A stretch of 64,000 nucleotides of DNA from the IMG/VR virus record IMGVR_UViG_3300045988_087221. The stretch is one strand, 5' to 3'. Under the pieces are notes generated by a model that was given only the letters and a program-made list of their open reading frames with translations, was not told the DNA's origin and searched no databases. Position 1 is the first letter of the stretch. Every line of letters begins with the position of its first letter. The translations under genes and the position numbers were made by a program. Shown piece by piece: positions 1-46,651 of this stretch. Origin of the DNA: a virus.

Positions 1-1
1 T

Positions 2-2506: not shown

Positions 2507-5500
2507 TGAGTAATATAATAAATTTTAATGTACAAACTAAGGTATTGCCTACTAAAGGTAACTTAGTATATGAGTACAATCCATTTAGAAATTATAGACT
2601 AACCTAGATTAAATATGAATATTAGGAGTAGTTATATACAGAATAGGAATTAGAAGATAATTTTAATATTTTTATAGATAGGACATATGAAGTAGTACCA
2701 AATGCAACAATAAAAGATGGTAAAAAAATAGAACTTAAAGATAGCCCAGCAATAAATATATCTATTACTGCATTTAAAGATGAGTCCTATAGGCAACACT
2801 TTAAAGTTGAAGGTAGAGATACTTCTAATCATCCTGTAACTGATGAATGTGGTAATTACCTGCCTAATGGAACTCCTGCAGTTGCTTGGGTAATACGATA
2901 TAACAATAAATTATATTGGGAAGATGATTTTCTTAGTAATATAAATTCGATATTCACATATACTATAGGAACCCAATGGCTTAAAAAGACTGTTGTTGAG
3001 GGTAAAGAAATTTATGAGCCCCTCACTGAAAATTTACCTATATTACATGAAAAGGGAGAATTAGTAGATTTTGTAACAGATGAGTTAAAATTTGACTTAA
3101 AGCATCCAGTAAATATTGTACCTCAATATAGTTATGATGGTTCTGTTAACTTAATTATTAACGATGGTATAAATACCCCTAAACTAATTAATAGTAGGTT
3201 CAGTGCCACAGGTAAAAATACTTATGAGATAATAGACAGAAAAGGTAATAATGACACCAATATTTATGATTAGGGAGACTAGTTTGAGATAGACACTTCA
3301 TTATATAAAAGAGTAATTAGTATTCCTAAATTATCCTATGAGGGCACGTCTTCGGGTGGTAATCTTAAAGTTGGTAACTATCACTTTTATATTAAATTAT
3401 CAGATGCTGATGGTAATGAAACAGACTTTGTTGCAGAATCAGGATTAGTTAGTGTATTTATAGGATTTGGTAATCCAGATAGTTTAACTACAGGTGTTAA
3501 AAACTAGAATAGTTTTAAAACAGTAAATCTATATCTATCTAACATAGACCCAGCTTATGATTATTTATATGTTTATTATTCTAGATATACTGCAGAATAG
3601 GATGAAAATATTAACACTGAATACATAAAGATAGATAAGAAATTTGTAGTATCTAATTAGGGTACTTGTAATATAAGTATTAATGGATATGAACCAACTA
3701 TACCTATAACTGCTAGAGATATTAATGACTCTTTTGAGATAGTGGATGCTGCTAAAGCTCAAGTTTCTTGTCAGAATATGCTGTTTTTAGGTAATGTACA
3801 TAAACCTGAAATACCCTATAAAGAATTATCTGATTTGTCTTTACATTTTTTGCCTTATTTAAAAAATAAAGACTATGAATGTAAATTTGATCAGAACTAT
3901 AATATAAATACTTCATCTTTAGGTTATTGGGATTCTTAGTACATATATAACTACGTAGGTTATTGGAATAATGAGTTTTATAGACTTGGAATAGTTTATA
4001 TACTGCCTAATGGTGAATTAACTCCTGTGTTCAATATTAGAGGATGTAGCAATATAGTTGAATATGATTCGAATCTTAATTTATATTCAGATATACCATT
4101 ATATCTTAATAACGAACGTAATTATGTTAATTATAACGAAACAGATTACTAGCTAATAACTACTAATACTAGAAACAAAGAATTAAAATCTACAGCTCTT
4201 AATGAGAACGTTAAAGGAGTAATTAGATTTCAATCTGATAAAGATGCTGATACTATACATAGTTTAGATATTAGGATTAATAATGAAGCTATGTAGGAAC
4301 TAAAGAAATATGTTAAGGGGTTTTTCTTTGTTCGTCAAGCTAGAATCCCAACTATATTAGCTCAAGGTATTACACTAGGACTAGATTAGAACTCCTATAC
4401 TCCAACTATACCAACAGCAGGGGGTTTATTAGAACAGTTATCTAATTCTTTAGATAAAACTTATGTAACTACAGAAGATATTAATGACGTAAATTATATC
4501 TCTGAAGGATTTCTATCTAGATATTAGTTCAAGTTTAAAAAGAAATCTTCTAGTTTATGGAGTAAAATAGGTAAAATAGCTGCTATTACTGCAGGAGTTG
4601 TAGCCTTAGGTGCTGCTACAGTATTTACTGCAGGGGCTGCTGGAGCGTTAGTTGCGGGGTCAACATTAGCTGGAGCAGTTACCGCAGGTAGCACTACCTT
4701 AGGGGGAATCTTAGTTGCTGGAGGAGCTGTAACCACAGGACTAGGATTAGCTACTGGAGTGGCAGGAGCTTCTGCAATTATAGCTGTAGGAGCTGGAACT
4801 GCAGCGGGATTGATAACAGCTGCAATTGCTACAGGTCAAGAAATTAAATATGGTATTTAGACTTGGTAGCATAAAAAACTAGATGGAAGAAATACTAAAT
4901 GCCCTAAGGGATATAAAATAGCTGAATTAGATGAGTCTAGAAAAGTAGGAGGTGACTTTGAGAATAGAATTATAATTAAGGATAATTCTAAGAATAAAAC
5001 ATAGGTTATTTTATGTCCAGACTTTGAAGTAAACCAAGCTTATTTTAATTAGTTGTTTACAGGTAACGAACATTTAATAGAATCTACAAAAGCTTAGGGA
5101 AATAACTTATTATTGGGACACAGTTCTAATTATTTCTCAGAAGATGTCATTAATAACTATAGACATTATTATATGCCTGATTACTATGATACTAATTCTA
5201 GTATATCAGGAACTTACAAATTAATTAGTGTCCCTGAAGACGTTAAGTGTGTAGGATTAGATAATTTAAAGTTTAGAAGTAGAGCTGGTTATGCAGAGGA
5301 AGCTTGGAGATATGAATCTGTAGGTGATGAATATAAAACACAAAATGATAGAAATAATAAATCAGAAACAGATGAAGAAACAATAAGTAATAAGTAGACT
5401 AATTCTGATATAGTTAGGGGTATATATGGGGCTTATTTAGGAGTGGCTAATACTTCAGATAAATTAACTCCTGCGACTACTGTAAATATTTATATACCTA

Positions 5501-8500
5501 AATATGATAGTAGTAATACACTTAAGTATATTTAGATAAGAATGGATGATAATTCTACGTATTCTGCTATTACTGATAGAATTGACATATCAGAATCTGA
5601 TAATTACTTAGTAACTAAGAAATCTTAGTTAGTTAATGATTCTACTGACTTTTATAAAAAAGGATATTAGTTTTCTGCATTTAGAGGGGATTGTTATATA
5701 TGTCAATTTACTCATAGGGTAATAAGAAACTTTAATTCTCCTTCTGCTCCTTATAATGATGAAATTGTTGACGAGAATACTTGGAAAGATAACTATAATC
5801 CAGAAAAGACAGAGAGTTATGAGAATATAAACTTGGGAGATGTTAATGCTGTTTAGTTAGGTATGTGGGTAACTTTTAGAATACGTTCATCTTACAATTT
5901 AAATATACGTACTTTAGACAGTTCTAATGTTGATGAAAAACAAATGACAGGACACTCTAGAGGTTATTTCCCATATACTCCTATGAGTGTAGAGGGCACA
6001 TATAAAATTCCAGAATCTCATATTTATAATAAAGGATTTAGTAAATCCCTGAGTGATAGATGGAATAACTTATTGCCTGATGTTCCTTATATTAAGAATT
6101 GGTTTGGAACACGTATTATGTATTCTGATATTCATATTAACGATGCATATAAAAATGGTTATAGAGTATTTAGAAAGACTAATAGTGTTGATTATACTAG
6201 AGAATATGGAGAAATAACTAAGTTAATCTCGTTAAATTCCAATTTATTAATTATATTTGAACATGGAATTGCAGTTGCTCCAGTTAATTAGACAGCAGTT
6301 CAATAGGTATCAGGATAGCTTGTAACTACTTCTAGAGTGCTTCCAGAGACTCCAACTGTTATTTCTGATATGTTTGGTAGTCAATGGACAGATAGTATTC
6401 TGAAGACTCCAGGAAAAAGAGGAAATAATACTTAGTATGTATATGGTGTAGATACTGTAGCTAAGAAGATTTGGAAGACTGATGGAAACTCTCTAATCTG
6501 TATTTCAGACGTTAAAGTACAAGAATTTCTAAATAATAATATTACTCTTGGAGAAAGAGAGATTACACCTACATTAGGGATTCGTAATGTAAAAACTTGT
6601 TATAATTCTTATAAAGGAGATGTAATGTTTACTTTCTATGATAATACTACTGGTTTTTAGGAGAAAGTATGGAATTTGTGTTATAATGAATTATTAGATA
6701 AGTTTATTACATTCTACAGTTGGATTCCTAGTTTTATGGAGAATATAAATAATATACCATTCTCATTTAATAGAGACACTTCTAAGTGGATAGCTAAATT
6801 AGGTACGAGTCATTCTACAAGTTCTTTTGCAGATGGTATTACCTTAACTAATGTAGTATTTGATCCTACTTTAGATAACGAAGTTGTTTAGAATATATCA
6901 GTACCTATTAATTATTTAACTAAGAATGGAACTTATAAAACTACCTATGGAACTGTAATGACAACAAGTTATTTTATAGGTATATTACAATTATCTAATA
7001 GAGTAATTCCTAATTACAATGTTCCATATGATATTAGTTATGAATTATGTAGAGATATTTATGGTAATTATAAAAATTTTACTCTAAAGAAGTTAAAATT
7101 CTATGATAAAGATAACCATGAATAGGATACTTTCCCTTTAAGTAATGTAAAAGATGCCTTATTCCCAACTCACGATGTTTCAGTATATGGCTTATATATA
7201 AATCCTAAATCACCATTGTATACAAGAGATTTAATGGATAATACTGGAGTTAAGAGGGTATACTTAACTACTAAAGATGAAGAACATAATAAAATAAGTA
7301 GTGTATTTATACATAAAGACATGAGATCCATGCTACTTTCTGAACTTTATTATAGAAATAAAAAGAACCATGCTTATGCTGATACAGATGTAAATAAATG
7401 GGAGCCTAATACTAAAGAAAGTATAGACATTATAGAGTAGCAACTAACTGCGGATACTATATAGGGAGTAACTTCTGATAATTATTTAGAAAAGTTTAAA
7501 GAAACAAAGGCATATGAGGTTATCAACGATTTATATAACTAGTATGGTAAGTTATCAGCTTAGATAGAAGTATCTAATGATGTTTAGTTATCTAAATCTA
7601 CTAATATTATGTCTATGTATTTCAAATGGAAGGAATTAGTTACTTACTCTGATAACATGTTTAAGTACAATGATAGTCCTATATAGGCTTATATAGTTCA
7701 TGCACAAACTGTTACTTATTCAGAGTTAATTCATATTAATGCTCCTATATTCAAGAATCTACAAGGTAAAAGAGAAATGTTACCTAAAGATAAATAGATA
7801 AATCCTGATACTATAGTTAAACTATTAAATATCAAAGCTACTATAAATGCTACTATACCTAATACTGATCAATCACTAGAAGATTATTATTATAATAAGA
7901 CAGCTAGTTATAATGTAGCTACTTATGAATCTACTGTTGCAGTTATCCCTAAATGGAATATGTAGTTTTTAAGTACAGATTTCTGGAAACATGGTTAGGC
8001 AGGTTCATTTGATATAGCAGATGACATATATCCATGTTATTGGTATGGTAAATAGCATCAATTTGAATTCGAATTTATTGTAGTTAATGATCCTAGTGTC
8101 CATAAGATATTTACTAATTTGGAATTAATAGCTAATAAAGCAAAACCTGAATCTTTTCATTATGAAGTAATAGGAGAGGCTTATGATTTTGCAAAAGATA
8201 AACCAAATATGTATTTTAGACAAGAGGCTATGAAAGCTCTTTGGCAATATAATGGCTGTGATATTGAGTATAATAGCGACTTCCTGAAGATTTAGACTAG
8301 ACAATAGAATAAGTCGGCAGATTTACCACATAATTATTTTGCAAGAGCTAAGCACATTAATGAAGTAGAGGATAGTTATATAATGGCTTAGGTTGGAAAA
8401 CACGATTATAGACACTTATCTGGAGGCGAAATTGTATATTATCCAAATAGATAGGAGTTCAGAGTTTGGAATCACGTTCCTGCTATTGATGTTGATGACT

Positions 8501-9063
8501 AGACTGATACTTCAGCTTCTTCCTTTGGAGGAAGAGGTTTAATGGCTTCTAATATGCGTTATCTTGAGGATAGATGGAAAGTACAGATAAATCCTTTATT
8601 AATTACCTATAAAAATGAGTATGAAAGAAGGGATTCTACTAAGGCTTTATGTGCCCCAGAAAATTCTACTTGGAAAAATGGAGCAGGTACTAGAGCAGGA
8701 GATAAACTACCTCCATTACCTTTATATAATTCACCTATTCCAGATGCAGTAAAAGAAAGAGGCGAAATAGCCATTCCAGGATATTCATCTTCTGTATTGA
8801 CTGGATATTCAGAAACTACTGAAGGTAGAGATAATGCAATGTATAATTTATATAAGGTAGATTTTGAGAATGGAATACATCCATTTGATACATCCTCTTG
8901 GTTAGATGATGTGAATATTTATAAGTATAATTTTGGAAATGCTCAAAATAGAAAGGAAACTGATATGAGAGATAAATTTATAAAAATTAGAATTAGATAT
9001 TCAGGTAAAGAACTAGCAATAATTGATTTTATAAATACTATATATCAAGTTAGCTATGCATAA
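2506..9063 (+). CDS. Giant virion/tail-associated structural protein (2185 aa) with an internal Gly/Ala-rich hydrophobic segment; TAG-recoded
   Basis: ATG at 2506, TAA at 9061..9063. Track ORFs 3742, 5113, 5863, 6676, 7216 and 8542 are all in frame 1 and separated only by TAG. Compositionally coding throughout. No family recognised. Confidence 0.7.
4564..4846 (+). other. Gly/Ala/Thr/Val-rich hydrophobic (glycine-zipper-like, putative membrane-inserting) segment inside the 2185-aa protein
   Basis: Translates as KIGKIAAITAGVVALGAATVFTAGAAGALVAGSTLAGAVTAGSTTLGGILVAGGAVTTGLGLATGVAGASAIIAVGAGTAAGLITAAIATG. Its locally higher GC creates the spurious antisense ORF 4524..4736. Confidence 0.6.
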
Positions 9064-10651
9064 AAAAATAAGACTAATATAGAAAGGTTAGGCAGGATTT
9101 CAGTTTACATAGTAGGGATTAGTTGGAGGATTAGTCCCTACTACAGCTGGTTCTGTATTAGATTAGAATACTATAAATGCTATCAATTAGCAATAGACTA
9201 ATATATGGAAAGCACAACAAGATGAGTAGGCTAGAATAAGATAGTAGCAAATAAGTTAGGGTTATTAGACAGCTTCTAATGCTTTAAATCCCATCTCTTA
9301 GGGATTAACTAACTTCGGTATAATGTCAGGTAATTATACTATGGCTAATCTAGGTTAGTTAGGAGGCTCTCTTAGTAGTGGTCTTTAGTTAATGTCTAAT
9401 TGGAAAAGTTTATCTAATTAGGATAAGACAGCAGGAGTAGCTGGAATTGGGGGTCAAGCAATAGATACTTTAGATAATATGTTCTTTGCTAAACAACATG
9501 CTAAAGACTCGGGTTTAACTAAAGGATTAAATAATGCTTATGATTCTATATCTAATGCTGCAATGATGTTTTCTCCTGTTGGAACTATTATTGGTGGCGC
9601 TATGAAAGCTGGAAAATTTATAGGAGATGGATTATCTGCATTAGGAATAGGAACTGATTAGATGACTACTACCGATAAAATATTAGATAGTAGCTTTATG
9701 AAACTTACTCCTGCAGGATTAATCAATGGTATAGGTGCAAAAAGAGCTAAATAGTTCTCTGCCAATAATGACACTATTGAAAAAGTTGGAGGAGACTATG
9801 CAGATTCTGTAAATACCATAGAAGATGCAGTCTCTAAAGTAGGTAAGAAATATGGCTTATTTAGTAATGGTGCCAGGAAACGAGCTAATAGGCTTATTGA
9901 TACAGCCAAAACTCAATAGAATATTATGACTAATATATCTAATGCCTATCAAGATTAGTTAGCCAACAAATCATATTTAGCTTACACTAGATATGGACAG
10001 GATATTAATGGTGGATTATAGCAATAGTATTTAAGAGCTGCTAAGCATGGTGCTATTCTATAGAGAATTAATCTAAGAAAACATAGAAGAGGTGGCTAGC
10101 TTAAAGATAAAATAGATATAGAAGTTAAATAGGAACAGTGGCAACCCATAATTAATCTTGAATACCCAGAAGTATCTAAATTAAAAGAAGGAGGCTAGTT
10201 AGAAGAACCTAAAGAATGGACTCCTGTAATTAGTTTAGATATATAGAAGTTAGAAGAGGGTGGTAAAACTGATAAACCTAAACAAGAACCTGAGAAGGTT
10301 GAGGAAACTAATTAGAAAAATGTTATTCCTGAGGGTGCTTTACATGCCCATAAGCATCATATGGAAAATGCAGAAGATTTAACTAAGAAAGGTATACCAG
10401 TAGTTGATAATAAGGGTGAACAACAAGCTGAGATAGAACGTAACGAAATTATTTTCTCTTTAGAAGTAACTAAGTAGTTAGAAGATTTGCATAAAAGATA
10501 TTAGGGATATACTAATACTTAGAAAGAGAAAGATGAATTAGCTATTGAAGCCGGAAAGTTACTTGTTTATGAGATTCTACATAATACAGAAGACAGAACT
10601 GGTTTAATTAAAGAATGTAAGAAAGGAGGTACGCTAGATGGGAATAAGTGA
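9056..10651 (+). CDS. Virion-associated protein (531 aa) with a very Gln(TAG)-rich N-terminus and a His-rich EGALHAHKHHMEN motif; TAG-recoded
   Basis: ATG at 9056 overlaps the upstream TAA by 8 nt. Frame 2 is open to TGA at 10649..10651. I counted 16 in-frame TAG between 9056 and 9478. The His-rich motif lies at 10331..10366. Track ORF 9479 is in this frame. Confidence 0.65.
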
Positions 10652-11300
10652 TTTATTTGTATCCTATAATTAGGTATAGGCTCCTTCTTACTTAGAGTCT
10701 CCTTAGATAGAATATACTCCAATAGGAGAAGAATTAACTAATTAGGAAAATTTAGATAGAATTTAGTCTAGAAATTAGAAAAAAGAAGGATTTGCAGGAT
10801 GGAATCCTCTAGAACAAAATACTTCAGAAGACAATTCAATAAATACTTCTCATACTCCTGCAAAGGGTTCTAAGTCCTTCAATTTAGCTATGACTTCTTA
10901 TTTAGCTAAACATCCTGAAGATGCTAAATATAGATAGACACTTACAGAAATAGCTGCAAAAGAATCTAATTTTAATCCTACTGTTAAAAATGCTAAGTCC
11001 TCCGCTAGTGGATATTTCTAGTTTATAAATAGTACAAGAAAGCAATATGCACCGCATTTAACTAAAGAACAATTTTTAAATAATCCAGAGGAATAGATTT
11101 CTGCTGCAGTTAAATTACTTAAAGCTAATAGAAATATATCTAGTAAATTCGCTAATTTAAGAGGACTTAGTTAGTTACAAGTTGATTATGGAATGTGGTT
11201 TAGTCCAGCAGCTTTAAGTCAATATCTTAAAACTGGTAAATCCAATTTTAAAGACCCACAAGGAACTAGTTTAATGACAGTACTAAATAAAATGGCTTAA
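10638..11300 (+). CDS. Lytic transglycosylase (SLT-domain) peptidoglycan hydrolase, likely virion-associated (220 aa); TAG-recoded
   Basis: ATG at 10638 is preceded by AAGGAGGT. The translation contains EIAAKESNFNPTVKNAKSSASGYFQF. This matches the SLT catalytic Glu-Ser ... G-x-x-Q signature, and the Q is encoded by TAG at 11019..11021. TAA at 11298..11300. Confidence 0.8.
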
Positions 11301-11923
11301 TGGATAAGAAAAGAATAATTATAGGAGACAAACAATATACTGTAGAAATAGCTAAAACTGAAGAAGATAGAAAGAAGGGGCTTCAAGATAGAGAATAGTT
11401 AGCACCTGATGAAGGAATGTTATTTATCTGGTCTGAATAGTAGCCAGTTATAGAAATGTGGATGAAAAATACTAAGATTCCACTTGACTAGATAGCTATT
11501 AATAATGATGATGAAGTAACTGCAGTATATAAAGCTTAGCCCGAAGATGAAACGCTACACCCATTTCCTAATGCTAAGTATATACTTGAAGTAAACTAGA
11601 ATTCAGGTATAGAAGAAGGAGATGATTTTGAGTTTGATGAATCTGATGACCCTAATAAATATGTAATGAAGGTACTTGCTCCTGATGGTTCGACTCAGAT
11701 GGATCTATAGGGTGGAGAACGCATATTTAGTAGAATTTCTACAAAATAGATGATTACTTGGGCTAAGAAAGCAGAAGCTAATAAAGATAATAAGGAGTTA
11801 TTTAACAAATACTGTAAGAGACTTGGTAAGAGAATGTTTAAAGAATTATATGCTCAAGACCACAGAGAACCAGAATATGTAGATGCTCCTGAATCTAAGA
11901 AAGATTAGAACGATAAAAAATAA
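11300..11923 (+). CDS. DUF192-family protein (207 aa); TAG-recoded
   Basis: The start is coupled as TAATG. DEGMLFIW...EMWMKNTKIPLDQIAI...AKYILEVN matches the DUF192 pattern GMLF...fWMknT.ipLD...yvLE. TAA at 11921..11923. Confidence 0.65.
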
Positions 11924-12037
11924 ATAATTACATAAGTCATCAAAATTATTTGTATTTTAGATAATTGATATGTACTATTGAAATACATAATATTATTAGA
12001 TAATTAACTAGTTAATTAACAAATTAAATTTAAACAC
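11924..12037 (+). promoter_or_regulatory. Largest non-coding gap of the + module: candidate promoter/operator upstream of the small GC-rich gene
   Basis: There is a 10-bp direct repeat TTAGATAATT at 11957..11966 and 11996..12005. A perfect 18-bp palindrome TAATTAACTAGTTAATTA sits at 12001..12018, 20 bp before the ATG. TTTG-N20-TACTATTG (about 11949..11980) resembles a Bacteroidota -33/-7 promoter with one mismatch. Confidence 0.4.
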
Positions 12038-12325
12038 ATGCAATTTATTAAGAAGTTTCAAGAAGGTGGAGCTGCTCCAGCACCAGAGGCTGCTGCTCCA
12101 CAGTAGGGTGGTGAAGACCCAACAGCTATGTTGATGCAAGGTGCTCAGCAAGCAGTACAAAATCAAGATTGTCAAATCGCTATTCAGGTATGTCAAATGG
12201 TACTCGAAATGCTCGGCGGAGGTGGTGCCCCAGCAGAAGCAGGTGGACCTGAAGCAGGTGGTGCTCCACAATCAGAACCTGTTTATCGTAGAGGTGGACG
12301 TCTTGTAAGAAGAATTTAGAAGTAA
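12038..12325 (+). CDS. Small Ala/Gly/Pro/Gln-rich protein with a basic C-terminus (95 aa); GC-rich, codon usage atypical for the block
   Basis: The ATG at 12038 is in frame with track ORF 12128..12319. There is one internal TAG (12104..12106) and one penultimate TAG (12317..12319) before TAA at 12323..12325. Gln is mostly CAA/CAG here, unlike in the neighbours. The gene is flanked by a long intergenic region and a hairpin. Confidence 0.6.
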
Positions 12326-12338
12326 TCAATTTTAAACG

Positions 12339-12376
12339 TAGGGATATATCTAGATACTCATTTAGGTATATCCCTA
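12339..12376 (+). terminator. Stem-loop (10-bp perfect stem TAGGGATATA / TATATCCCTA), candidate intrinsic terminator or RNA-processing site
   Basis: The inverted repeat 12339..12348 / 12367..12376 has an 18-nt loop and is followed by AATTTTATAAT. It lies between TAA 12325 and ATG 12387. Confidence 0.5.
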
Positions 12377-12386
12377 ATTTTATAAT

Positions 12387-15300
12387 ATGGCAGAATAGAC
12401 TAAAAAATCGAAATATAATTTTGGAGGTCATGAATTAGATGCTAAATTATATCTCTAGAATATAAGAGATAACGCAGAAACATTTCTTAATTCTAAAACA
12501 GATTGGACTCCAGAACAAAAAGAAGAATGGAAGCATGCGTACACTAATTTTACTAATGCTTTATAGGAAGATATTAATAATGGAGGCGGAAGATTCAGTA
12601 CTGATGAATTTGGGACTATAACAGACACTAAGGGAGAATTTTCTAATACAGATTCTGATAATTACTATTATAATAATAAGGGTTAGCAAATTAGTTAGGA
12701 AGATTATGATGCTTTAAAAAAGAGAAAGCAAGGTAAGTATTAGTCTTTTGAAGCTAATAGACAATTTGCCTCTTATGCTAGTTAGATAGGTAAAGGGCTG
12801 AGAGAAGCTTTAGCTGCTAAAAATAAAACTTCTGATGATACAAATGGATTTGACTATGCTAAGAACGGATTTGATGCTTATTGGTAGAAGAAATACAATC
12901 CAGCAGGAACAGCTAATGACCTTCAACCTTATTGGAATAAAGACAAAGAAGGAGAATACACTAATAGAGTAGCTGAAACTATGGCAGACTTAGATGATTA
13001 TATGTCTAAGTAGGAAATGAATGATGATGTTAAAGCTGCTTATACTAATTATAGAAATATTCTAGGACAATATAATCCAAGTGATAAGAATTTTAATTTA
13101 GATACTTGGAAGAACAATATGATACTTGCTGCAAGTAGAGCAGGTATTAGTGGATGGAATAATGGATACTTTAATATCGGCTCTCAAAGTACTACACCTA
13201 CAGAGGATAAAAAGTCTGAGGCTTTTGATATAAATAATGATTAGGCGGTTATTGATAAATATAAATTAGCAGACTAGATTGCTGCACATCCTGAGTAGAG
13301 AGAGCATCTTCTTGATTTAGCTAGAAGACAATATAATCAGGAATCTTAGAATATAACTGATGAGTACAATGCAGCTATTAAATAGGAATAGGAAATTGCT
13401 AATAATAAGATATGGCAGTAGTATTTAGCTAATGAAGGTAAAAGTTATGCTAATGTAAGTAAAAGAAACTTTGGTACTGAAGTCTTTGGTAATGGTTGGC
13501 AAAACGGAAATACTGATTTTGAGTATACTAGTAGAACTAGTCAAGAGGCAATGAGACGTTTATAGAATGCTTTTAAAACTGGAAATAGAAAAGGAGATTT
13601 TCTTAGAACAGCTATTAATATGACAGTTAATGGAGGTAAATAGAAGATTTCTAATCTAGGTGAAGCACTTGCTTATTATAAACCATTACTCGATAAAACA
13701 CAAGGTGGTTGGGATTAGTTTGAAAAAGTATAGGATGCTGCAGGTAATGAAATATATAAATTAAAAGGTTCTGAAAATGCAAAAGGGCAACCCCTTTATA
13801 TATGGTTCAAAAATGGAAAAGCACATGCTTATAGAGACGATCCATATTCTGTAAGAAAGGCTTAGATTATCTCAAGAGCTTAGTTAGGTATGAAATTACA
13901 AACTAGAGCTGAAAAAGAGGCTGCAAAAGAAAAAGAAAATAAAAAAACTCTTAGTAATCCAAATACGCCAGAAGATAAAAAGAGACAAATAGCAAGTTAG
14001 AGAAGACCCGGAGATACTGAGTTTACTGCCACTGATATAGCTAGAATATCTGCAGCTGGAATGGATGTAGCTTCTGCTTTATCAGCGTTTGTCCCAGTGT
14101 ACGGTACTGCTATAAGTGCAGGCACAGGTTTAATTTCTTCTTTAACTAATTTTGGTGCAGATATGTCTGATAAGTCTGTATCAGCAGGAGATATGTGGAA
14201 AAATCTTGGGACTAATATTGCTATGGATGCCGTAGGATTGGTTCCAGGTTTTGGAGCCTCTGGAAAAGCAGGTAAAATAACTAAAACTTTAATTAAATAT
14301 GTACCTAAGATAGTAACTGCCCTATCTGTGGCTAATGCTTTATCTCCTGAATCTAGAGCATCTTGGGCTAAATTAGCTAGTAAAGAATCTCTCACAGTTA
14401 AAGATTGGCAAAATATTGCAGCGGGTTGTTCAGCTTTAGCAGGAGTTTCTAGAGGTGCAGTTGGACATTTTAATGCCCACACGATGGCTAAAGGTACTAA
14501 AACTAAGGATTTTAATATAACTGCTTCTGATGGCAAATAGTATAAGGTAACTGCAGAATAGTTAGAAACTTTAAAGAAACAAAAGTCATTAGAAGATGTA
14601 AATAAAGAATTTAAGAAGTTACATCCTGATGCTGAATTAAGTAGTTTCTTTAGAAATGGTAAATGGTAGTAGTTAAGACATTTACACTTTAATAATCCTC
14701 AAGTTAAATCAGTTTATGATTTTAGTCGATTAAATAACTAGGGAACATTTAGTAACTCTAATATATGGAGAGTAGCTAGAGAAAATAACTTACATGGTAT
14801 TAGTTTAGATGTAAAAAATCCATATAGAAATTCATTACTTAAACAACCTACAGAATCTTCAACTAAACAGAAAATCTAGAGATTAGTCAATTCTCCTCTT
14901 AGAATAGGATTTGATAATGCACCTATTGGTTAGTCATATATACCCCCAACTCCAAAATATGGACCTAAAACACAAGGTTAGACTTGGAGAGATTTATTTT
15001 AGAAACATGGATTCTATTTTAAAGAAGGTGGTTCGATTTAGAAATTAGCTAATGGTAATAATATAAATGGTAATCCTGCTAAATAGAATAGTGTAGGATA
15101 TGCTAATGATTATAATTGGAATACTGATGTGTTTTCCAAAAATTTAGACCATATACTTGGTAGTCTTAAATAGTATAAAGATGGTTATGCTAATTGGTTA
15201 AATACTATGTAGGACTTACATTATAATGATTATACTAATGCTTCTAAATAGGATTATTTAAATACTAATGCATATAATAATGCAACTGTTGGTTAGTATT

Positions 15301-16757
15301 AGGATAAGTATAAAGCGGGATATGAAGACGAATGGAATGTAAGTCCTGAAGGAAATGATCCTGATGGTTTAGGATACAATACTCTTGGAATTAAATCAGC
15401 CCAAGATTCTGGAAAATTTGGTATAGTGTCTGGAAAGGCTAATTCAGGTGATTGGTTAGGTAATGGTAATATGTATAAAACTGATAATTCATTTGGAGGA
15501 ATTACTGATGCTAGAAGACTTTTGGGTCGTGAGGGTGATTTTAATGATGAATAGCTAAAACAATACTAGCAAAAATTCAAAGAATAGGGATATGATTTTT
15601 ATTTAGACCCAAATACTAAATATTATAAATTAAAACCTTACACTGACCCTTCAAAGACGACTGTAGCAGACTAGGATAAACCTAAATAGCCTAATAACTT
15701 TAGTTTAAAAGATGTTATAAATAAGATTGATGTTACTGATAAATGGGGTATTCCTAGAGCTATGTATGCTGACATAACTAATAGAAAAGTTACAGATATG
15801 TTAAAGAAGTAGCCTATATTATATGACCCACAAGAAGACCATCGTTATATTTAGTCTGATTTAGATGCAGAAATGAATGGTCAATAGGCTGCAGCTTAGT
15901 TAACTAGAACAGCCAGTCATCCTATTACATCTGATGGAAATTTACAATCTATGCTTTAGTTAGAGGCAACTTCTAAAGGTAATGACGCTATTACTGCAGG
16001 ACGTCAATAGAGTAATTAGAGGTTAAGAGAAATGTAGGAATAGGCTTGGTAGCAGGAAGTGACTAATCACACAAGTAGACATGATGTTGCTATGAAGAAT
16101 AGAGAATCTCTCTATAATACTGCTAACGAAAATAAAGCCTTAGAAGCAGCATACCTCAATTAGAAATTTACTGTATGGGATGCTTTGGCTTAGGAGAAGG
16201 AATTTAAGGATAAATCTGATTACGAGCAAATGAGAGCAAGAGCAGATTAGTTTGCACAAGGAGATATAAATAATGCTATTAAATATGGTCTTTCTAATTA
16301 TGCAGATAAATATGGTTTAACTCCTGAAGATGTTTCTTTATGGAATAAGGTATATACTGATGGTACAGTTAAATTGAGCGATATTTAGAAAGATCCAGTT
16401 AAATTAAGATAGTGGAATAAGGTATTATCAGCTACTAGACAAATTTAGCAAGATTTATTAGGAGAATATTATGGTATCCCTAAATCTAAGTATTGGACTA
16501 TCAGACAATCTACCCCTTCATATAGTTACAGTACTGAAGTTAAGAAAGCTAAAAAAGGTGCTAAGCTAAATTTACGTAAAGTAAGAGAAGCAGCAAAAGG
16601 AGAAAAACTTGCAGCAGCATAGCTAAAAGCTTAGACTGCAGATGCTGATAGATTCTATAAAACTACTAAAGACCATATAGATAGAATGTATGATGCTATA
16701 AATAGACTAACTAATTATAGTAGTACTAAGAGAAAACGTAAAAAGAAATCTAATTAA
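12387..16757 (+). CDS. Large internal-virion/ejection protein candidate (1456 aa) with a central Gly/Ala-rich hydrophobic region; TAG-recoded
   Basis: ATG at 12387 with TAG already at codon 4. Frame 0 is open to TAA at 16755..16757. Track ORFs 13017 and 14061 are in this frame. The C-terminus is basic (KRKRKKKSN). Confidence 0.65.
14055..14480 (+). other. Gly/Ala-rich hydrophobic segments inside the 1456-aa protein
   Basis: Translates as AGMDVASALSAFVPVYGTAISAGTGLISSLTNFGA...AMDAVGLVPGFGASGKAG...AAGCSALAGVSRGAVG. It generates the antisense shadow ORF 13997..14536. Confidence 0.55.
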
Positions 16758-16759
16758 AT

Positions 16760-18622
16760 ATGATATTTAAGTTTCAATAGGGAGGAGCCACTCCTCCCTT
16801 TGTTGCTTATTAGCCAGTTATAGTGTCTGATAAGCGAACAACTGCCACTTAGGAAGAGGCATTGGCAGCAAAGGCTACTAAAGAATCTGAAAGTGGTAAG
16901 TTATCAAGCAAAGATTTGTATACAATGCTTAAAGAGAAATTGAAGGGACTTCCTAACGATGTAAATATAGCTATGAATTAGTTACAATAGCTTGAATAGC
17001 TTACATCAATGGATTTTGATGGTTCATTTACTTAGAACATTGAATCTAAGTATTTATCTACTTTACAAACTATGAATCAACTTTCATTTAGTAGAGAATA
17101 GTATGATAAAGCTTTAGATAATGTAAAATCTAATGGAGGACTTAATGAGGCTGCTATAGATTAGTATGGTCAAGTATATATGACTGATGGTAAAGACTAT
17201 AAATTAATGTCTCCTGAAGAAGCTAAATAGTCTGGATGGAAACAAATGACTAATTAGGATTTACTTTATTTAAGAGCTAATGACCCTAATTTATCAGGGA
17301 AAGATGAGATATTAAATGTAGTTAATAACGGTATAGGAATTAGTCAAGTAACCAAAATGATACAGGATAGTATTGGAAATTTAGGTACTAATAGTAATTC
17401 AGAAACTGCTTATGCTACAACTCAATAGGGTTAGCTTATACAAGGACTTAATGATTTTATTAAAGCAGCCCAAGAAACCGGGCAATATGATGCTTCTATA
17501 GAAGATTTATATAAAGCACAAATAATCAATAAAACACAGGCTCAGTAGGCTCAGTAGGCTATTGCTTATATATATAAAACATTACCACAGAATGCTAAAT
17601 CTTTATTAAAGACTAGAACTGAAGGAGGGACTGATAAGGAAGCTTTAAACTTAATTAGTACATTAGTATTATCCAAAACTAGTGAAGATAGATCTTTTAC
17701 TGCAGATTTAGAGGGTGGTCCTACTAAAAAATCTATGTCTAAAGATGCTAATGCTGGAAGTAAGGATGATACGGAGTTGAAAACATCTCTTCCATTACAA
17801 GTTATGTAGGATATGGGAGGAGCTGATATAGCTCCAGTAACTATTGATAAAGGTGATGGAGTACAAATGTCGGTATATGGTTCATTCTTCTCTGCTATCA
17901 ACGATAAAAAAGGTGAACCTATTGTTAATACTTCTCTATAGAATATGTTAGCTCAATCGGGTTTACAGGATATAGTTAAAAATGTTAGAAGTATAACTTT
18001 TGGAGATTAGAAACTTACTCCTGAGTAGTTATCTAAAATCACATATAACAATACTGGAATTGTTAGGGCTGACTTACCAGTAAATGAAGATGGAACTGTA
18101 AAACTAAGTGTTCTTGATGATTTTAATGCAGCTATGAATGAAATTAAAGGACTTGGAAATGCATCTAAGGAACAAGTAGAAGCTATTAAGGCAAAGTACC
18201 ATCTTGATCAGTATCTTAAAGATGATGGTACTCCTGATCCTAAACATACTGCTCCATTTATACTTACTGAAGGTTATACTACAGAGAAAAATGGTATTGA
18301 AGACACTGCATATGTTAAACATATCAAAAATCCTACGGATGATTAGATACAATTAATTAAAGATTCTCTTACTGTGGGTACTGGTAAAGATGCTAAAGTT
18401 CCAGATATAGATACTTTTGATTGGTACAATCCATTTGATTGGTTTGGTACTGAAAATATTTATAAAGCAACTGTATATATTCCAATATCTAATAATGTGG
18501 GTGCTGCTGTTAGAGGAGGTAATTAGAACTTAGATTATAATGAAGCTCTTAAATATGAAATGAAGTATAGGAACTTCTAGAGAATGAATAATGCAAAAAC
18601 TACAAGCGCTGACGTATTATGA
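16760..18622 (+). CDS. Virion-associated protein (620 aa), N-terminus MIFKFQQGGA; TAG-recoded
   Basis: The ATG at 16760 is 2 nt after the upstream TAA. Frame 2 is open to TGA at 18620..18622. Track ORF 18134 is in this frame. The ATGA-type overlap with the next gene is consistent with coupling. Confidence 0.65.
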
Positions 18623-21600
18623 ACGATTGGTTAGTGGCAAATATAAATAATCCCGATTTTACAGTTTCTGACTTTAAAAATATCGCGGATATGAGTATAG
18701 ATAATACACAATTTTTAAAGAAAGATTAGTATTTAAAGTCAGATTTTATTAAGAATAATCCTGCTTTTAAAGGAAACAATGGAGACTTTGATTAGAAAAA
18801 GTTTGATAAATATTATGATTAGAGACTTTAGGATTTCTAGTAGTTTAAAAATGATAAAACTCCAGCAGGATTTGAACTTGATGTTTTTGACACATTAAGA
18901 ACTCCTAATGATAAGGTTAGAAGTAATGGTCTTAAAATAGGTAGAGGTTATAATCCTGATAGATAGAAAATTGGTATTGAAGGAGTAAATGTTTGGAGTA
19001 AACCTGAACGTAGTAGATCGGAATTGGCTCAAACATAGAAAATATTTAATTCTGAGACTGGTAAATTTGAAAATTGGACACCAAATGATAATGCACTATT
19101 TAATGGTAAATCCGATTTTGGTTTAAGTTGGTTAAAATCTTTATTTTCAGACCCATTAGTATTGGCTCAATATGAAGAGGATACTATAGACAAAGATGGC
19201 ACTAAACATAAGAAAGGAGACTATAAATTAAATGAAGAAGGTACATATTATTATGAAACTTTAGGAGGTAGAAATCCCATTGGTAAACAAGTATTATCCT
19301 CTTTAGATACTCTTACTGTGGATGGTACTAAATTAAACAAATATGATTTCTTTGATTCTGATGATATTGAAAAGTCTGTAGGAGGGGTAATTGCTAAGAA
19401 TGTAGCTACTCTTATACCTATGTTTGTAGGGGGTCCAATTGGAACTGTTTATTCTACAGCTCTTATAGCTAGGGAAATGGCTAAGTCATTACCTATGTTA
19501 TATGGAATGACAACTGCTTTATTTAGTGATTCAGAAACTCCTAAATGGATGAATACCATAGCTGCTATGGGTGATAAATTTACTTCTGGAACTTCTGACT
19601 ATGCTAAAGAACATACCTTTAGTGTTGAAAACTTTGGTAATCTTATTTCTGATGTAGCTTTATAGTGGGGTCAGCAAAAAGGTATTGCCTAGGCTATTAA
19701 TAAACTAAAAGGTAGTAAGAATTATATAGAAGAAGCTATGGAAGATGCAGCTAAATTATACAAGGCTAAGGCTTCTTCTATGCCTATGTAGGCATTATCT
19801 TAGACTGGCAATTGGCAAGATAGTGTTTTAGGAGCTGCTTGTATTAAAAAATACTTACCAGCAGCTGAAAAAGCTATGAAAGAATCTACTTAGCTAGGAC
19901 GTGATGCTTCATTAGCTTATATGGCTATTGTATCTAATTCTGATGTATATGGGGATGCCTTACAACATGGTGCTTCTAAATAGGATGCAGCAGCTATAGC
20001 TTTAGGTAGTACTTTAGGTATGTATGCTGTAGACAAATATGCACATCTTGGAGAGTTGTTTTTTGATGATGCTACAGAAGATAGTGTAAAGGCAGCTAGA
20101 AATGCTATTAAAAATGAATTATTAGGAGAAGCAGACGAGAAAGGTGTTAGAAAGGGAGGTTTAAAAGCTATATTTGATCAAATAAGTGCTTCTAATGATA
20201 CTCCAGCTAATAAAGCAGTGTAGAAAATACATGCAGCCTTAAATAAAACTAAATCTTTTCTAGGTAACTATGCAGATGATTTAAAATACCATACTACAGG
20301 ATTTTTTGGAAAGGCTGCAGGTGAAGGTTTAGAAGAAGTAGGTGAAGAATTAGTTACAGATACTGCTAAATCTATATATTAGTTAGCAGGATTTTTAGGA
20401 GCAGATACTTCAACTGCTGATGTGGGAGCTTGGGATAATGCATTGGAAAGATATTCTATGTCATTTTTAGGAGGCGCTCTTGGTGGAGGTGTATTCTATG
20501 CAAAAGAAGCTTTCGATGGTGCTTCCTACAAAAGAGATAAATCTAATGAAGAATTAGCTACTTTAACTAGAAATGGGCATATAGGAGAATTACGTGATGA
20601 AGTAGAAAAGTTACGTAAGAAAGGTAAATTAGGAAGTACTAAATTATCTGCTAGTGATTATGAAACCACTTCTAAAGGAGAAAATGTTTGGTTAACTACT
20701 AATAATGAGAATGATTCTTAGAATTAGAAAATTGCAGACTTAATTAATGATAAAATTACAGCTATAGATACTGTAATAAATAATAATCAAGTTGGTTTAA
20801 CTGATGATTAGTTATTTAATACAATGGTATTAGGAGAACAAAGATATTAGATGTATAAAGATATTGCTCCTATAACTAATTATTATGAAGATTTTAATGA
20901 AGTCCTATCTAATTTAATTAAAGCTGAGTTAGACTACAGAACTGCTTCTCAAACATTAGATGGTTCTACAGAACTTACTGATTCTAATAAAATTACCGAC
21001 TAGAAACTTAGAGCCCTAACTCCTGAATAGCAACAAAATAGAAATAATGCTCTTGCTGTATTATAGTAGAAAGTAGAGAAAGCTAGACAAGCTAAAGATG
21101 AATTTTTATCAGGAGATACTTCTCTTGATTATACTCGTAAACTAAATTTTGCTCTAGACCCTAATTTACACAGTCCGTTTATGGATATAGATGCTGAAGC
21201 ATTGTGGAAAGAGTAGTTTGGGAATAAGTCCATGGATGAAATATCTGATGAAGATAAATTACATTTTTATACAGTAGTTTTACCAGAAAAATAGAAATTT
21301 TAGACTAAGGAAGCAATAACTAAATCTTGGGATAGATTTAAATAGATTGAAAAAGTTATTAATCCTGAGTTACATAATCTAACAGATAATGCTCCTCAGT
21401 TTAAACAATGGCATTAGAAATTTCAGCAAATAGTTAGTTAGTTAGATTCTAAGGATTTAATATCTAGCTATGCTAATTATGATACTAAATTAGATACAGA
21501 ATCAGATGACGAATATAATGCTAGAAATAGTAAATTGATAGACCCTGTAACTGGAGCAGAAGAATCTGATTAGGATTTTATTAATCGTAAGAATAATAGA

Positions 21601-27600: not shown

Positions 27601-27840
27601 AAATCAGTAGCCCTTAATTAGCTATTAAATAGTTAGGAATTTAAAAATAAACTTGACGATACTAGCACTCTAGATGAATTTATATAGAAATTAAACACTC
27701 TTATAAATAATGCTAAAACTCTTAATGAGGATTAGATTTCTGAGGCATTACATAAATTGAAAGATGACCTTAATTATGTAGATATAACTGGACTAATATA
27801 TGATGATTATCCAGAGTTATATAAAATATTTGAATGTTAA
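18619..27840 (+). CDS. Giant protein (3073 aa) with an embedded SF1 (RecD/Pif1-like) helicase core and hydrophobic N-terminal segments; TAG-recoded
   Basis: ATG at 18619, TAA at 27838..27840. Track ORFs 19162, 20020, 20422, 25021 and 26818 are all in frame 1. I read 20.7-23.5 kb codon by codon and found only TAG interruptions. Confidence 0.7.
23461..24480 (+). other. SF1 helicase motif set inside the 3073-aa protein
   Basis: Walker A is VIITGDAGSGKTS (23461..). Walker B is ILAIDEATH (about 23803..23829). Motif III is LLGDEKQ, with Q = TAG at 23911..23913. Motif V is MQGQEFEYVVID, with the Q of QG = TAG at 24331..24333. Motif VI is LYTLMSRGKTASIFI. Confidence 0.7.
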
Positions 27841-38138: not shown

Positions 38139-38141
38139 TTA

Positions 38142-45539: not shown

Positions 45540-45752
45540 TTATTTATTATACCATATTACATGTGTATATTCCATATTTTTGTTTTTATCTTCATCTAAT
45601 GTGAAGGAAGAAGGAGATAACCATTTATGGGTCCAATCTCCATTCTCATTAGAATACTGTCCCTCACCGTCAGAATCTATAAACAATCCATCCTCAACGC
45701 GCTCTCTAAATTCATCTCTAGTATAGAGATTTCCATTATTTAACTTTTTCAT
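45540..45752 (-). CDS. Hypothetical protein (70 aa)
   Basis: Intact ORF with a TAA stop. It is the last gene of the - strand module and abuts the next ORF. Confidence 0.6.
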   Translation of the reverse strand: MKKLNNGNLYTRDEFRERVEDGLFIDSDGEGQYSNENGDWTHKWLSPSSFTLDEDKNKNMEYTHVIWYNK

Positions 45753-45753
45753 A

Positions 45754-46640: not shown

Positions 46641-46651
46641 TTATAATATAT

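What the first reader, a model, noticed from the sequence alone, without database searches (positions are those of the whole stretch)
11010..11024. Conserved-motif positions indicate that TAG encodes glutamine
Three invariant Gln positions of well-known motifs are encoded by TAG.
1. In the SLT lytic transglycosylase signature G-x-x-Q, GYFQF is encoded by gga tat ttc TAG ttt, with TAG at 11019..11021.
2. In SF1 helicase motif III GD-x-x-Q, LLGDEKQ has TAG at 23911..23913.
3. In SF1 helicase motif V Q-G-x-E-F, MQGQEF has TAG at 24331..24333.

CAA and CAG are also used, so TAG acts as a third Gln codon. In many late genes it is the dominant one.
Basis: partly seen in the sequence, partly recalled or inferred. 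Interest (0 to 1): 0.75.

Follow-up and report, generated by a model that had tools for sequence, protein, structure and literature searches.

The report
TAG read as glutamine, crAss-like phage

Summary
Reading through TAG raises long-ORF coverage of the window from 36% to 96%. Twelve + strand genes (1..45250) hold 527 in-frame TAG and no in-frame TAA or TGA. TAG is 62% of their Gln codons. The 34 - strand replication genes called (45540..63783) hold none.

Two tests independent of any assumed translation point to Gln:
- Against 12 close relatives, 60% of changed TAG codons are CAA or CAG.
- Against four relatives confirmed at DNA level to use the standard code, Gln is 4.4-fold enriched at 1075 TAG columns. 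The Gln substitution profile fits best. 17 of 23 conserved TAG columns are Gln, and none of 22 Trp, 70 Tyr or 145 Leu columns is TAG.

Both helicase motif sites carry only TAG, CAA or CAG in 18 loci. The SLT site aligns to the Gln of phiKZ gp144.

The phenomenon is already known (Yutin 2021, Borges 2021, Peters 2022), and public databases already translate this lineage with TAG=Gln. No canonical CUA suppressor tRNA was found in the window or in roughly 150 kb sampled from close relatives, so the mechanism remains inferred. One early-gene TAG aligns to Tyr and looks like a nonsense mutation.

The parts
11019..11021 (+). In-frame TAG at the Gln of the SLT lytic-transglycosylase motif (G-Y-F-Q-F)
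   Evidence: Sequence read. It aligns to the Q of phiKZ gp144 'SSATGWFQF' (PDB 3bkh/9xps). The codon is TAG in 7 close relatives and GGA (Gly) in L003.
23911..23913 (+). In-frame TAG at the Gln of SF1 helicase motif III (LLGDEK-Q)
   Evidence: The column is Q in 106 of 109 aligned rows and invariant (Q1765) in 40 diverse sequences. It is CAA or CAG in four standard-code relatives and TAG or CAA in the 14 recoded loci. It aligns to Upf1 GDHQQ.
24331..24333 (+). In-frame TAG at the Gln of SF1 helicase motif V (M-Q-G-Q-E-F)
   Evidence: The column is Q in 110 of 111 and invariant (Q1905). Only TAG, CAG or CAA occur there in 18 loci. It aligns to Upf1 FQGRE.
10638..11300 (+). Gene for a 220-aa protein with an SLT lytic-transglycosylase domain; 10 in-frame TAG
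   Evidence: Pfam PF01464 SLT, 5.5e-9, 36.1 bits against a cut-off of 21.3. PHROG 4067, transglycosylase. Codon counts.
18619..27840 (+). Gene for a 3073-aa protein with a central SF1-helicase-like ATPase domain (about aa 1570-1970); 121 in-frame TAG
   Evidence: ORF. More than 800 database homologues. Invariant Walker A (G1615, G1618, G1620, K1621), DE1733-1734, Q1765, Q1905-G1906-E1908 and R1940. Profile hits to Upf1/NAM7, IGHMBP2, PcrA and RecD.
1..45250 (+). Late (virion) gene block of 12 genes with 527 in-frame TAG; all genes end in TAA or TGA. The first gene runs off the left edge of the window.
   Evidence: The left-edge gene is open from base 2, and its orthologous reading frame (stop to stop) is 1352 codons in L222.
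2506..9063 (+). crAss muzzle protein gene (2185 aa, 46 in-frame TAG); it marks the phage as crAss-like
   Evidence: Pfam PF25731 crAss_MUZ, 8.3e-16, 57.7 bits against a cut-off of 27. The same family is recorded on the orthologues in L012 and L015.
45540..63783 (-). Early or replication gene block, compatible with the standard code: 34 ORFs, 5752 codons, no in-frame TAG. Of the 38 - strand standard-code ORFs of at least 50 aa in this region, 26 end in TAA, 10 in TGA and 2 in TAG.
   Evidence: Functions: family A DNA polymerase, RNA ligase, thymidylate synthase, DNA ligase, NUDIX hydrolase, phosphoesterase; PNK 3'-phosphatase, AAA_33 kinase, T7 gp5.9-like protein, sigma-70 factor, crAss001_48.
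47534..47536 (-). The only in-frame TAG of the early block, in ORF 47423-47764. It aligns to a conserved Tyr, not Gln.
   Evidence: Homologues read LKE-Y-EEC or LKE-Y-KEIS. A 99%-identical DNA copy (L263) has TAT where the window has TAG.

Best explanation
The window is about one third of a 180-190 kb crAss-like phage genome from the human gut. In this phage TAG has been reassigned from 'stop' to glutamine (NCBI table 15).

The reassignment shows only in the + strand block of large virion-associated genes: muzzle protein, SLT lysozyme-like protein, DUF192 protein and 3000-aa-class giant proteins. There TAG supplies 62% of the Gln codons, and only TAA and TGA terminate genes. The convergent - strand block holds the DNA polymerase, ligases, nucleotide metabolism genes and a sigma factor. 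It avoids TAG altogether, with one exception, so an unmodified host ribosome can translate it.

The most likely mechanism is inferred, not shown. Early in infection a factor is made that decodes UAG as Gln. In this phage group that is classically a phage tRNA with a CUA anticodon, charged by the host glutaminyl-tRNA synthetase and out-competing release factor 1. Once it is present the TAG-laden late genes become translatable. The code change therefore also acts as a timing lock on virion and lysis functions.

Shown here: TAG is a sense codon under purifying selection and is equivalent to CAA and CAG. Inferred: the decoding agent and the temporal switch.
For: **Sense codon.** ORF coverage rises from 36% to 96% with TAG read-through. 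There are 527 in-frame TAG against 0 TAA or TGA in 14,959 codons. The frames are conserved over 3000 codons in hundreds of relatives.

**Glutamine, from DNA-level tests that assume no translation.**
- Against 12 close relatives, 4256 aligned TAG codons are TAG in 82.4%, CAA in 6.4%, CAG in 4.1% and the next codon, AAA, in 1.0%.
- 447 of the 750 changed sites (60%) are Gln codons. Window CAG aligns to TAG in 33% of cases and CAA in 9.8%.

**Glutamine, from four relatives with zero TAG in the orthologous gene.**
- Gln is 19.9% at 1075 TAG columns, 4.4-fold over background. It is 25.9% at the window's CAA/CAG columns.
- The log-likelihood is best for the Gln substitution profile (-2867, against -3160 for Lys).
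- At columns where at least three of these relatives agree, TAG faces Gln in 17 of 23.
- Of 37 unanimous-Gln columns the window has TAG at 17 and CAA/CAG at 12.
- None of 22 Trp, 70 Tyr or 145 Leu columns is TAG.

**Composition.** Gln content of the late block is 2.1% without TAG and 5.7% with it. Standard-code orthologues of the giant protein run at about 3.2-5.6%.

**Motif sites.**

**Partition between blocks.** There is no TAG in 5752 early-block codons. In relatives, about 67 kb of contiguous early region reads 77-95% open under the standard code, whereas late regions read 28-39%.

**crAss-like identity.** crAss_MUZ, crAss001_48, and a family A polymerase closest to crAss-like phages at about 45%.

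**Literature.**
- The same pattern is described for crAss-like phages, with TAG to Gln mostly in late genes and different codes on neighbouring branches (PMC7886860).
- Gln insertion has been confirmed by proteomics in two crAss-like phages (PMC9523058).
- The temporal-switch model is set out in bioRxiv 10.1101/2021.08.26.457843.

**Wider clade.** A tRNA with a CTA anticodon (L261:1770-1840) sits at the position held by tRNA-Gln(CTG) in L257-L259. It is 89-90% identical to them.
Against: - No tRNA of any kind lies in the window.
- No canonical CUA-anticodon tRNA was found in roughly 150 kb sampled piecewise from close relatives. That sample includes two tRNA clusters. About 40-45 kb of a typical 188-kb genome was not sampled.
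- No release factor or glutaminyl-tRNA synthetase was seen among the early genes searched. Several small ORFs were never searched.
- There are no protein-level data for this phage.
- 6 of the 23 conserved TAG columns face a residue other than Gln.
- One relative has Gly at the SLT motif site.
- The single early-block TAG replaces a conserved Tyr.
- In the DUF192 domain most TAG columns are variable, and two face hydrophobic residues in distant bacterial homologues.
- Timing of expression is inferred from gene content only.
Confidence: 0.93

Rival explanations
1. TAG is a sense codon but stands for another amino acid, such as Tyr, Trp, Leu, Lys, Glu, Ser or pyrrolysine.
For: - TAG is one mutation from Tyr, Trp, Leu, Lys, Glu and Ser codons.
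- A few sites do show TAG against Tyr codons: DUF192 residue 33 and the early ORF at 47534-47536.
- Lys and Glu are the next most frequent partners.
Against: - None of 70 Tyr, 22 Trp or 145 Leu conserved columns is TAG. Only 1 of 87 Lys and 2 of 59 Glu columns are.
- Among the 750 changed sites, Gln takes 447, Lys 53, Glu 47, Tyr 17 and Trp 11.
- TAG to CAA needs two base changes, yet it is the commonest exchange.
- The likelihood favours the Gln profile by about 290 nats.
- Lys and Glu are the usual neighbours of Gln, and they appear equally at the window's CAA/CAG columns.
Confidence: 0.02
2. TAG is a genuine stop. The + strand block would then be a set of pseudogenes or gene fragments, or would be expressed only by inefficient read-through.
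For: Under the standard code the block breaks into short ORFs. No suppressor tRNA was found.
Against: - The reading frames are kept free of TAA and TGA for up to 3434 codons.
- TAG positions are as conserved as CAA positions: 82% against 80%.
- The proteins keep catalytic motifs and Pfam domains across the TAGs.
- Hundreds of independent assemblies share the pattern.
- With 121-130 TAG per gene, even 90% read-through per codon would give about one full-length product per million. This is arithmetic, not a measurement.
Confidence: 0.01
3. TAG means Gln at all times because the host cell also uses this code. There would be no phage-driven switch, and the TAG-free early block would only reflect codon bias.
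For: No phage decoding factor was found. The early block uses TAG neither as sense nor, with one or two exceptions, as stop, so it says nothing about the host's reading.
Against: - A bias from 0 in 5752 codons to 527 in 14,959 within one genome is hard to explain without selection on the early genes.
- Standard-code and TAG-recoded relatives alternate at short distance. That fits a phage-borne trait.
Confidence: 0.04

Closest known systems
TAG-to-Gln ('code 15') recoded crAss-like phages (Yutin et al. 2021, PMC7886860; Borges et al. 2021, bioRxiv 10.1101/2021.08.26.457843; Peters et al. 2022, PMC9523058)
   Same: - In-frame TAG aligns to Gln.
- Recoding is confined to late and structural genes, and the early genes are compatible with the standard code.
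- TAA and TGA are the only terminators.
- G+C content is low (30%).
- Standard-code relatives lie nearby in the tree.
- A suppressor tRNA is often not detectable; it was found in only 40% of TAG-recoded genomes in Borges et al.
   Different: Nothing essential differs. This lineage has no near match among GenBank phage records, but it is abundant in IMG/VR, ENA and Logan assemblies, where its proteins are already translated with TAG=Gln.
Zeta group of crAss-like phages (145-192 kb; PMC7886860, PMC12386605)
   Same: - Genome size of relatives is about 160-190 kb.
- Two opposed blocks, replication and virion.
- tRNA clusters lie in the replication block.
- Family A polymerase.
- Branches with the amber code and with the standard code.
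   Different: Membership of the Zeta clade was not tested by phylogeny. The Zeta genomes described with amber suppression carry a tRNA(CTA); none was found here in the parts sampled.
E. coli supE-type amber suppression (tRNA-Gln with CUA anticodon; textbook knowledge)
   Same: UAG is read as Gln by a tRNA-Gln derivative. The orthologous pair tRNA-Gln(CTG) and tRNA(CTA) in distant relatives is the same one-base anticodon change.
   Different: supE is a weak, partial suppressor in a cell that still uses UAG as stop. Here UAG is the major Gln codon of whole genes, which requires near-complete reassignment.
TGA-to-Trp (code 4) recoded phages, for example some Zeta crAss-like phages such as Lera (PMC12386605)
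   Same: The same logic applies: a stop codon is used as sense in late genes only.
   Different: A different codon and amino acid. In the window TGA is a terminator, and TGA read-through does not open ORFs (39% coverage).

Membership tests
Code-15 (TAG=Gln) stop-codon-recoded phage | Conserved genes interrupted by in-frame TAG but not by TAA or TGA; ORFs are restored by TAG read-through | tested here: met
   Coverage rises from 36% to 96%. 527 TAG against 0 TAA or TGA in 14,959 codons.
Code-15 (TAG=Gln) stop-codon-recoded phage | TAG columns align to Gln in homologues that use the standard code | tested here: met
   Four DNA-verified standard-code relatives: Gln 4.4-fold enriched, best likelihood, 17 of 23 conserved columns. 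PDB alignments.
Code-15 (TAG=Gln) stop-codon-recoded phage | TAG is interchangeable with CAA and CAG among close relatives | tested here: met
   60% of changed TAG sites are CAA or CAG. 33% of window CAG and 9.8% of CAA align to TAG.
Code-15 (TAG=Gln) stop-codon-recoded phage | TAG is not used as a terminator | tested here: met
   All 12 late genes end in TAA or TGA. Of the 38 - strand ORFs, 26 end in TAA, 10 in TGA and 2 in TAG. One of those two is an overlapping alternative-frame ORF, and the other is the Tyr-to-TAG site.
Code-15 (TAG=Gln) stop-codon-recoded phage | Recoding is restricted to late or structural genes, with early genes code-neutral | tested here: met
   0 TAG in 5752 early-block codons against 527 in the late block. 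The same holds in relatives. 'Early' and 'late' are inferred from function.
Code-15 (TAG=Gln) stop-codon-recoded phage | Phage-encoded suppressor tRNA with a CUA anticodon | tested here: inconclusive
   None in the window or in roughly 150 kb of close relatives. About 40-45 kb is unsampled. One odd tRNA in L264 has CUA in a 6-nt loop. The literature finds such tRNAs in only 40% of TAG-recoded genomes.
Code-15 (TAG=Gln) stop-codon-recoded phage | Gln found at TAG positions in the proteins | not testable with these tools
   This needs proteomics. It has been done for two other crAss-like phages (PMC9523058).
crAss-like phages (Crassvirales in the broad sense) | Signature virion proteins and genome architecture | tested here: met
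   crAss_MUZ at 57.7 bits against a cut-off of 27. crAss001_48 at 49.3 bits against 24.8. The family A polymerase is closest to IAS virus, cr116_1 and PhiCrAssBcn phages. TerL, portal and major capsid protein lie outside the window and were not tested.
SF1 helicase-like ATPase (domain of the 3073-aa protein) | Walker A, Walker B (DE), motif III GDxxQ, motif V QGxE and the motif VI Arg | tested here: met
   All are invariant in 40 diverse homologues. The profile aligns to Upf1/NAM7 over motifs I-III and V-VI at E = 2e-4. Pfam AAA_30 and UvrD_C_2 are below cut-off for the window sequence. Helicase activity is untested.
SLT lytic transglycosylase (PF01464) | Domain match above the curated threshold, with the catalytic E-S and the G-x-x-Q motif | tested here: met
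   36.1 bits against 21.3. AAKES and GYF(TAG)F align to SIES and GWFQF of gp144.

The most novel reading that the evidence does not exclude
This lineage may reassign TAG wholesale without any canonical CUA-anticodon tRNA. TAG is 62% of late-gene Gln codons, with more than 500 sites in this window alone. Decoding would then depend on something non-canonical. One candidate is the class-I tRNA found in relatives whose body is conserved but whose anticodon loop changes between near-identical genomes (CUA or UUA in a 6-nt loop, GUA or UUA in a 7-nt loop, and 8-nt loops). Another is a host or protein factor.
Probability: 0.1. Interest if true: 0.6.

Novelty: already known. Interest (0 to 1): 0.22.

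Why it matters
For annotation it matters a great deal. Under the standard code two thirds of this window looks non-coding or fragmented; with TAG=Gln it resolves into twelve large virion genes. Biologically it is one more instance of a documented strategy, in which late genes are locked behind a code change. It does not open a new question.

The residual interest lies in how UAG is decoded in a lineage where no ordinary amber suppressor tRNA was found in the parts sampled.

Tried and rejected
- **Megablast of 21 kb against GenBank phages:** no match. The giant protein finds only two distant GenBank phage records.
- **PHROGs on six late proteins:** only the SLT protein matched.
- **Single-sequence PDB search of the helicase region:** nothing. 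A 10-sequence profile was needed.
- **Database homologues with Gln at TAG columns:** rejected as evidence. The loci do not translate to those proteins under table 11, so the Gln was put there by the gene caller.
- **Rfam on the window:** nothing.
- **Suppressor tRNA hunt.** Two tRNA clusters were found but no canonical CTA tRNA. ARAGORN at relaxed thresholds gave only scattered, non-conserved false positives.
- **Loose regular expression for CTA loops:** it recovered only L261 and L163, both distant relatives. It also turned up a conserved non-tRNA element.
- **'Family A' tRNA as the general suppressor:** considered and rejected. Contig 115917 is TAG-recoded (L004), yet its copy has a GUA anticodon.
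- **Exact-sequence look-up of an early protein:** not on record.
- **DUF192 against PDB:** the TAG columns there are mostly variable and uninformative.
- **Cluster look-up for names or accessions:** none given.

Full report
**1. The observation**

The sequence at 11010-11024 is GGA TAT TTC TAG TTT. TAG also sits at 23911-23913 and 24331-24333. All three are in frame. The first lies in ORF 10638-11300, reading ...SASGYF-TAG-FINST... The other two lie in ORF 18619-27840, reading ...LLGDEK-TAG-KGYY... and ...SKD-TAG-M-TAG-G-TAG-EFEYVVID....

The window has 30% G+C. ORFs of at least 100 aa cover 36.1% of it under the standard code. They cover 95.7% if TAG is read through and 39.3% if TGA is.

With TAG open, the window resolves into two convergent blocks:
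- **+ strand, 1..45250.** Twelve genes of 95 to 3434 codons. They hold 527 in-frame TAG, 257 CAA and 63 CAG. None has an in-frame TAA or TGA, and all end in TAA (10) or TGA (2).
- **- strand, 45540..63783.** 34 ORFs totalling 5752 codons with no in-frame TAG.

Of the 38 - strand standard-code ORFs of at least 50 aa in the second block, 26 end in TAA, 10 in TGA and 2 in TAG. In the first block TAG is 48-70% of Gln codons in eleven of the twelve genes.

**2. What the genes are**

- The 2185-aa protein at 2506-9063 is a crAss muzzle protein (PF25731, 57.7 bits against a cut-off of 27).
- The protein at 10638-11300 has an SLT domain (36.1 bits against 21.3; PHROG transglycosylase).
- The protein at 11300-11923 is a DUF192 protein (PDB 3pjy at 2e-14).
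- The 3073-aa protein has a central P-loop ATPase domain with SF1 helicase motifs.
- The - strand block encodes a family A DNA polymerase, RNA ligase, thymidylate synthase, DNA ligase, NUDIX hydrolase and phosphoesterases. It also encodes a polynucleotide kinase 3'-phosphatase, an AAA_33 kinase, a T7 gp5.9-like protein, a sigma-70 family factor and a crAss001_48-like protein.

The polymerase is closest, at about 45% identity, to crAss-like phages: IAS virus, cr116_1 and PhiCrAssBcn.

Relatives sit on contigs of 140-225 kb in IMG/VR and ENA human-gut assemblies. No near relative exists among GenBank phage records.

**3. Which amino acid: tests that do not assume the answer**

Public protein databases hold hundreds of full-length homologues with Gln at the TAG columns. 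I did not count this as evidence. The underlying DNA does not translate to those proteins under table 11, so the Gln was written by the gene caller.

*(a) Codon exchange with close relatives.* I aligned the window proteins, with X at each TAG, to the DNA of 12 close relatives and read the codons.
- Of 4256 aligned TAG codons, 82.4% are TAG, 6.4% CAA, 4.1% CAG, and the next codon (AAA) 1.0%.
- Of the 750 changed sites, 447 (60%) are Gln codons. Lys has 53, Glu 47, Tyr 17 and Trp 11.
- In reverse, 33% of window CAG and 9.8% of window CAA align to TAG. No other codon exceeds 4.4%.
- TAG to CAA needs two substitutions, yet it is the commonest exchange. That is the signature of synonymy.

*(b) Standard-code relatives.* A search of cluster representatives with the helicase region returned 172 homologues. 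DNA was fetched for seven, one of which (P0060) had come from the first homologue search. In four of them (L013, L016, L017, L018) the orthologous giant gene has zero TAG and 99-170 CAA+CAG. These phages use the standard code.
- Against them, 1075 TAG columns carry Gln in 19.9%, 4.4-fold over background. Glu and Lys follow at 10% each.
- The window's own CAA/CAG columns carry Gln in 25.9%, with the same neighbours.
- The likelihood of the TAG-column residues is highest under the Gln substitution profile (-2867). Lys is next at -3160.
- At columns where at least three of the four agree, TAG faces Gln in 17 of 23.
- Of 37 unanimous-Gln columns the window has TAG at 17 and CAA/CAG at 12.
- None of 22 Trp, 70 Tyr, 145 Leu, 128 Gly or 90 Asp columns is TAG.

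*(c) Composition.* The late block would be 2.1% Gln without TAG and is 5.7% with it. This is in line with the standard-code orthologues.

**4. The three motif sites**

- In the phmmer alignment to the representative homologues, the motif III column is Gln in 106 of 109 aligned rows and the motif V column in 110 of 111.
- In a 40-sequence alignment both are invariant, along with Walker A, the DE of Walker B, G1906, E1908 and R1940.
- At DNA level, across 18 loci the two sites carry only TAG, CAA or CAG. The four standard-code phages have CAA or CAG.
- A 10-sequence profile hits the solved SF1 helicases Upf1/NAM7, IGHMBP2, PcrA and RecD. It aligns GDekQ to GDHQQ and vQGqEfdyvviD to FQGREKDYIIL.
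- The SLT TAG aligns to the Gln of SSATGWFQF in phiKZ gp144, with the catalytic ES also aligned.
- One caveat: a relative (L003) has Gly at that SLT position, so the residue is not invariant within this phage family.

**5. Mechanism**

The partition is the pattern described for crAss-like phages: TAG is absent from the replication block and dominant in the virion block. It has been interpreted as a temporal code switch (PMC7886860; bioRxiv 10.1101/2021.08.26.457843). Gln insertion at TAG has been shown by proteomics in two such phages (PMC9523058). In relatives, about 67 kb of contiguous early region is 77-95% open under the standard code, while late regions are 28-39% open.

I looked for the decoding agent.
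- The window has no tRNA and no Rfam family.
- I walked outward in close relatives with every available scan. This sampled roughly 150 kb of a 188-kb genome type.
- That revealed two tRNA clusters, about 33-35 kb and about 55-60 kb beyond the right end of the window. Neither holds a canonical CTA-anticodon tRNA.
- In more distant relatives, a tRNA(CTA) in L261 occupies the position of tRNA-Gln(CTG) in L257-L259 and is 89-90% identical to them. Amber suppressors derived from tRNA-Gln therefore exist in the wider clade.

For this lineage the agent remains unidentified. That is common: suppressors were detected in only 40% of TAG-recoded genomes in Borges et al. About 40-45 kb also remains unsampled.

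**6. Exceptions and side observations**

The only in-frame TAG of the early block (47534-47536, - strand, ORF 47423-47764) aligns to a conserved Tyr in all homologues. It is TAT in a 99%-identical contig. It is a Tyr-to-amber mutation. It either truncates the protein early in infection or is read as Gln later. DUF192 residue 33 shows the same TAY/TAG relation among relatives. New TAG codons therefore also arise from Tyr codons.

**7. Verdict**

The phenomenon, the phage group and even this lineage's code-15 translation are already in the literature and databases. The finding is therefore correct but not new. The open point is the identity of the UAG decoder in this lineage.

Noticed in passing
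window 47423-47764 (- strand), TAG at 47534-47536: This is the only in-frame TAG in the otherwise TAG-free early block. It replaces a conserved Tyr: LKE-Y-EEC in homologues, and TAT in the 99%-identical contig L263. It looks like a nonsense mutation that would truncate the 113-aa protein to 76 aa unless TAG is read through.
   Followed up: yes
window 57690-58535 (-), 48156-48671 (-), 53931-54365 (-), 60033-61406 (-), 48668-49057 (-): The early block encodes a sigma-70 family factor (regions 2, 3 and 4). That suggests a second, transcriptional layer of late-gene control. It also encodes a tRNA-repair-like set (PNK 3'-phosphatase, AAA_33 kinase, RNA ligase) and a T7 gp5.9-like RecBCD inhibitor.
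   Followed up: partly
L261:1770-1840 versus L257:11275-11347, L258:11275-11347, L259:11277-11349 (distant relatives): A tRNA with a CTA anticodon sits at the same position, about 380 nt after the same gene, as tRNA-Gln(CTG) in three related contigs. It is 89-90% identical to them. This is an amber suppressor made from tRNA-Gln mainly by a one-base anticodon change.
   Followed up: partly
L264:8407-8481, L236:2655-2729, L271:753-826, L232:1411-1484, L226:2829-2902, L239:2162-2235, L268:7333-7406, L269:8530-8602 and others (relatives, about 55-60 kb beyond the right end of the window): A class-I tRNA (Rfam tRNA 53 bits) has a conserved body but an anticodon loop that differs between near-identical genomes. 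The loops seen are CACUAA, CAUUAA, AUUUAAU, AUGUAAU, CUAGGUAA, CGUAGA, CGUUGA and CGUAAA, of 6, 7 or 8 nt. The copy in the closest relative has CUA. A TAG-recoded relative (contig 115917) has GUA, so this is not a universal suppressor.
   Followed up: partly
L225:2011-2083, L264:11855-11927, L276:11726-11835 and about 35 other loci: A non-coding element of about 74 nt is conserved at 92-100% across phages whose neighbouring proteins are only 44-90% identical. It forms a hairpin with a T-loop-like TTCGATT loop followed by N-CCA (a tRNA-like minihelix), then a second small hairpin. It matches no Rfam family above threshold in the stretch searched.
   Followed up: no
L269:5319-5403, L268:4093-4174, L279:3353-3436 and others: An odd tRNA-like gene of 82-85 nt lies downstream of tRNA-Arg(TCT). 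ARAGORN labels it variously 'Stop (tta)', '??? (ta)' or 'Tyr (ata)'. Its anticodon region differs by small insertions and deletions between relatives.
   Followed up: no
L140:4475-5699 versus L141:4763-5687 (tRNA cluster about 33-35 kb beyond the right end of the window): The cluster holds tRNA-Ala, Gly, Asp, Thr, Met and Tyr. Relatively G+C-rich spacers of 140-290 nt are present between some tRNAs in one genome and absent in a close relative. One spacer holds a 33-codon ORF.
   Followed up: no
L013, L016, L017, L018 versus L014, L015 (relatives at 33-53% identity in the helicase region): Standard-code and TAG-recoded phages with the same gene order alternate at short evolutionary distance. 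The standard-code ones replace the SLT gene with other wall-degrading genes, for example Peptidase_M15_3 in L017.
   Followed up: partly
window 1-2506 (+): The first late gene is open from base 2 and runs off the left edge of the window. Its orthologous reading frame (stop to stop) in L222 is 1352 codons. The 10 kb upstream in relatives holds more TAG-containing structural genes and no tRNA.
   Followed up: yes
window 11396-11398 (DUF192 residue 33) and L003:SLT motif: TAG at DUF192 residue 33 corresponds to TAT or TAC (Tyr) in L003, L008, L012 and L013. At the SLT motif, L003 has GGA (Gly) where the window has TAG. Not every TAG sits at an ancestral Gln.
   Followed up: yes
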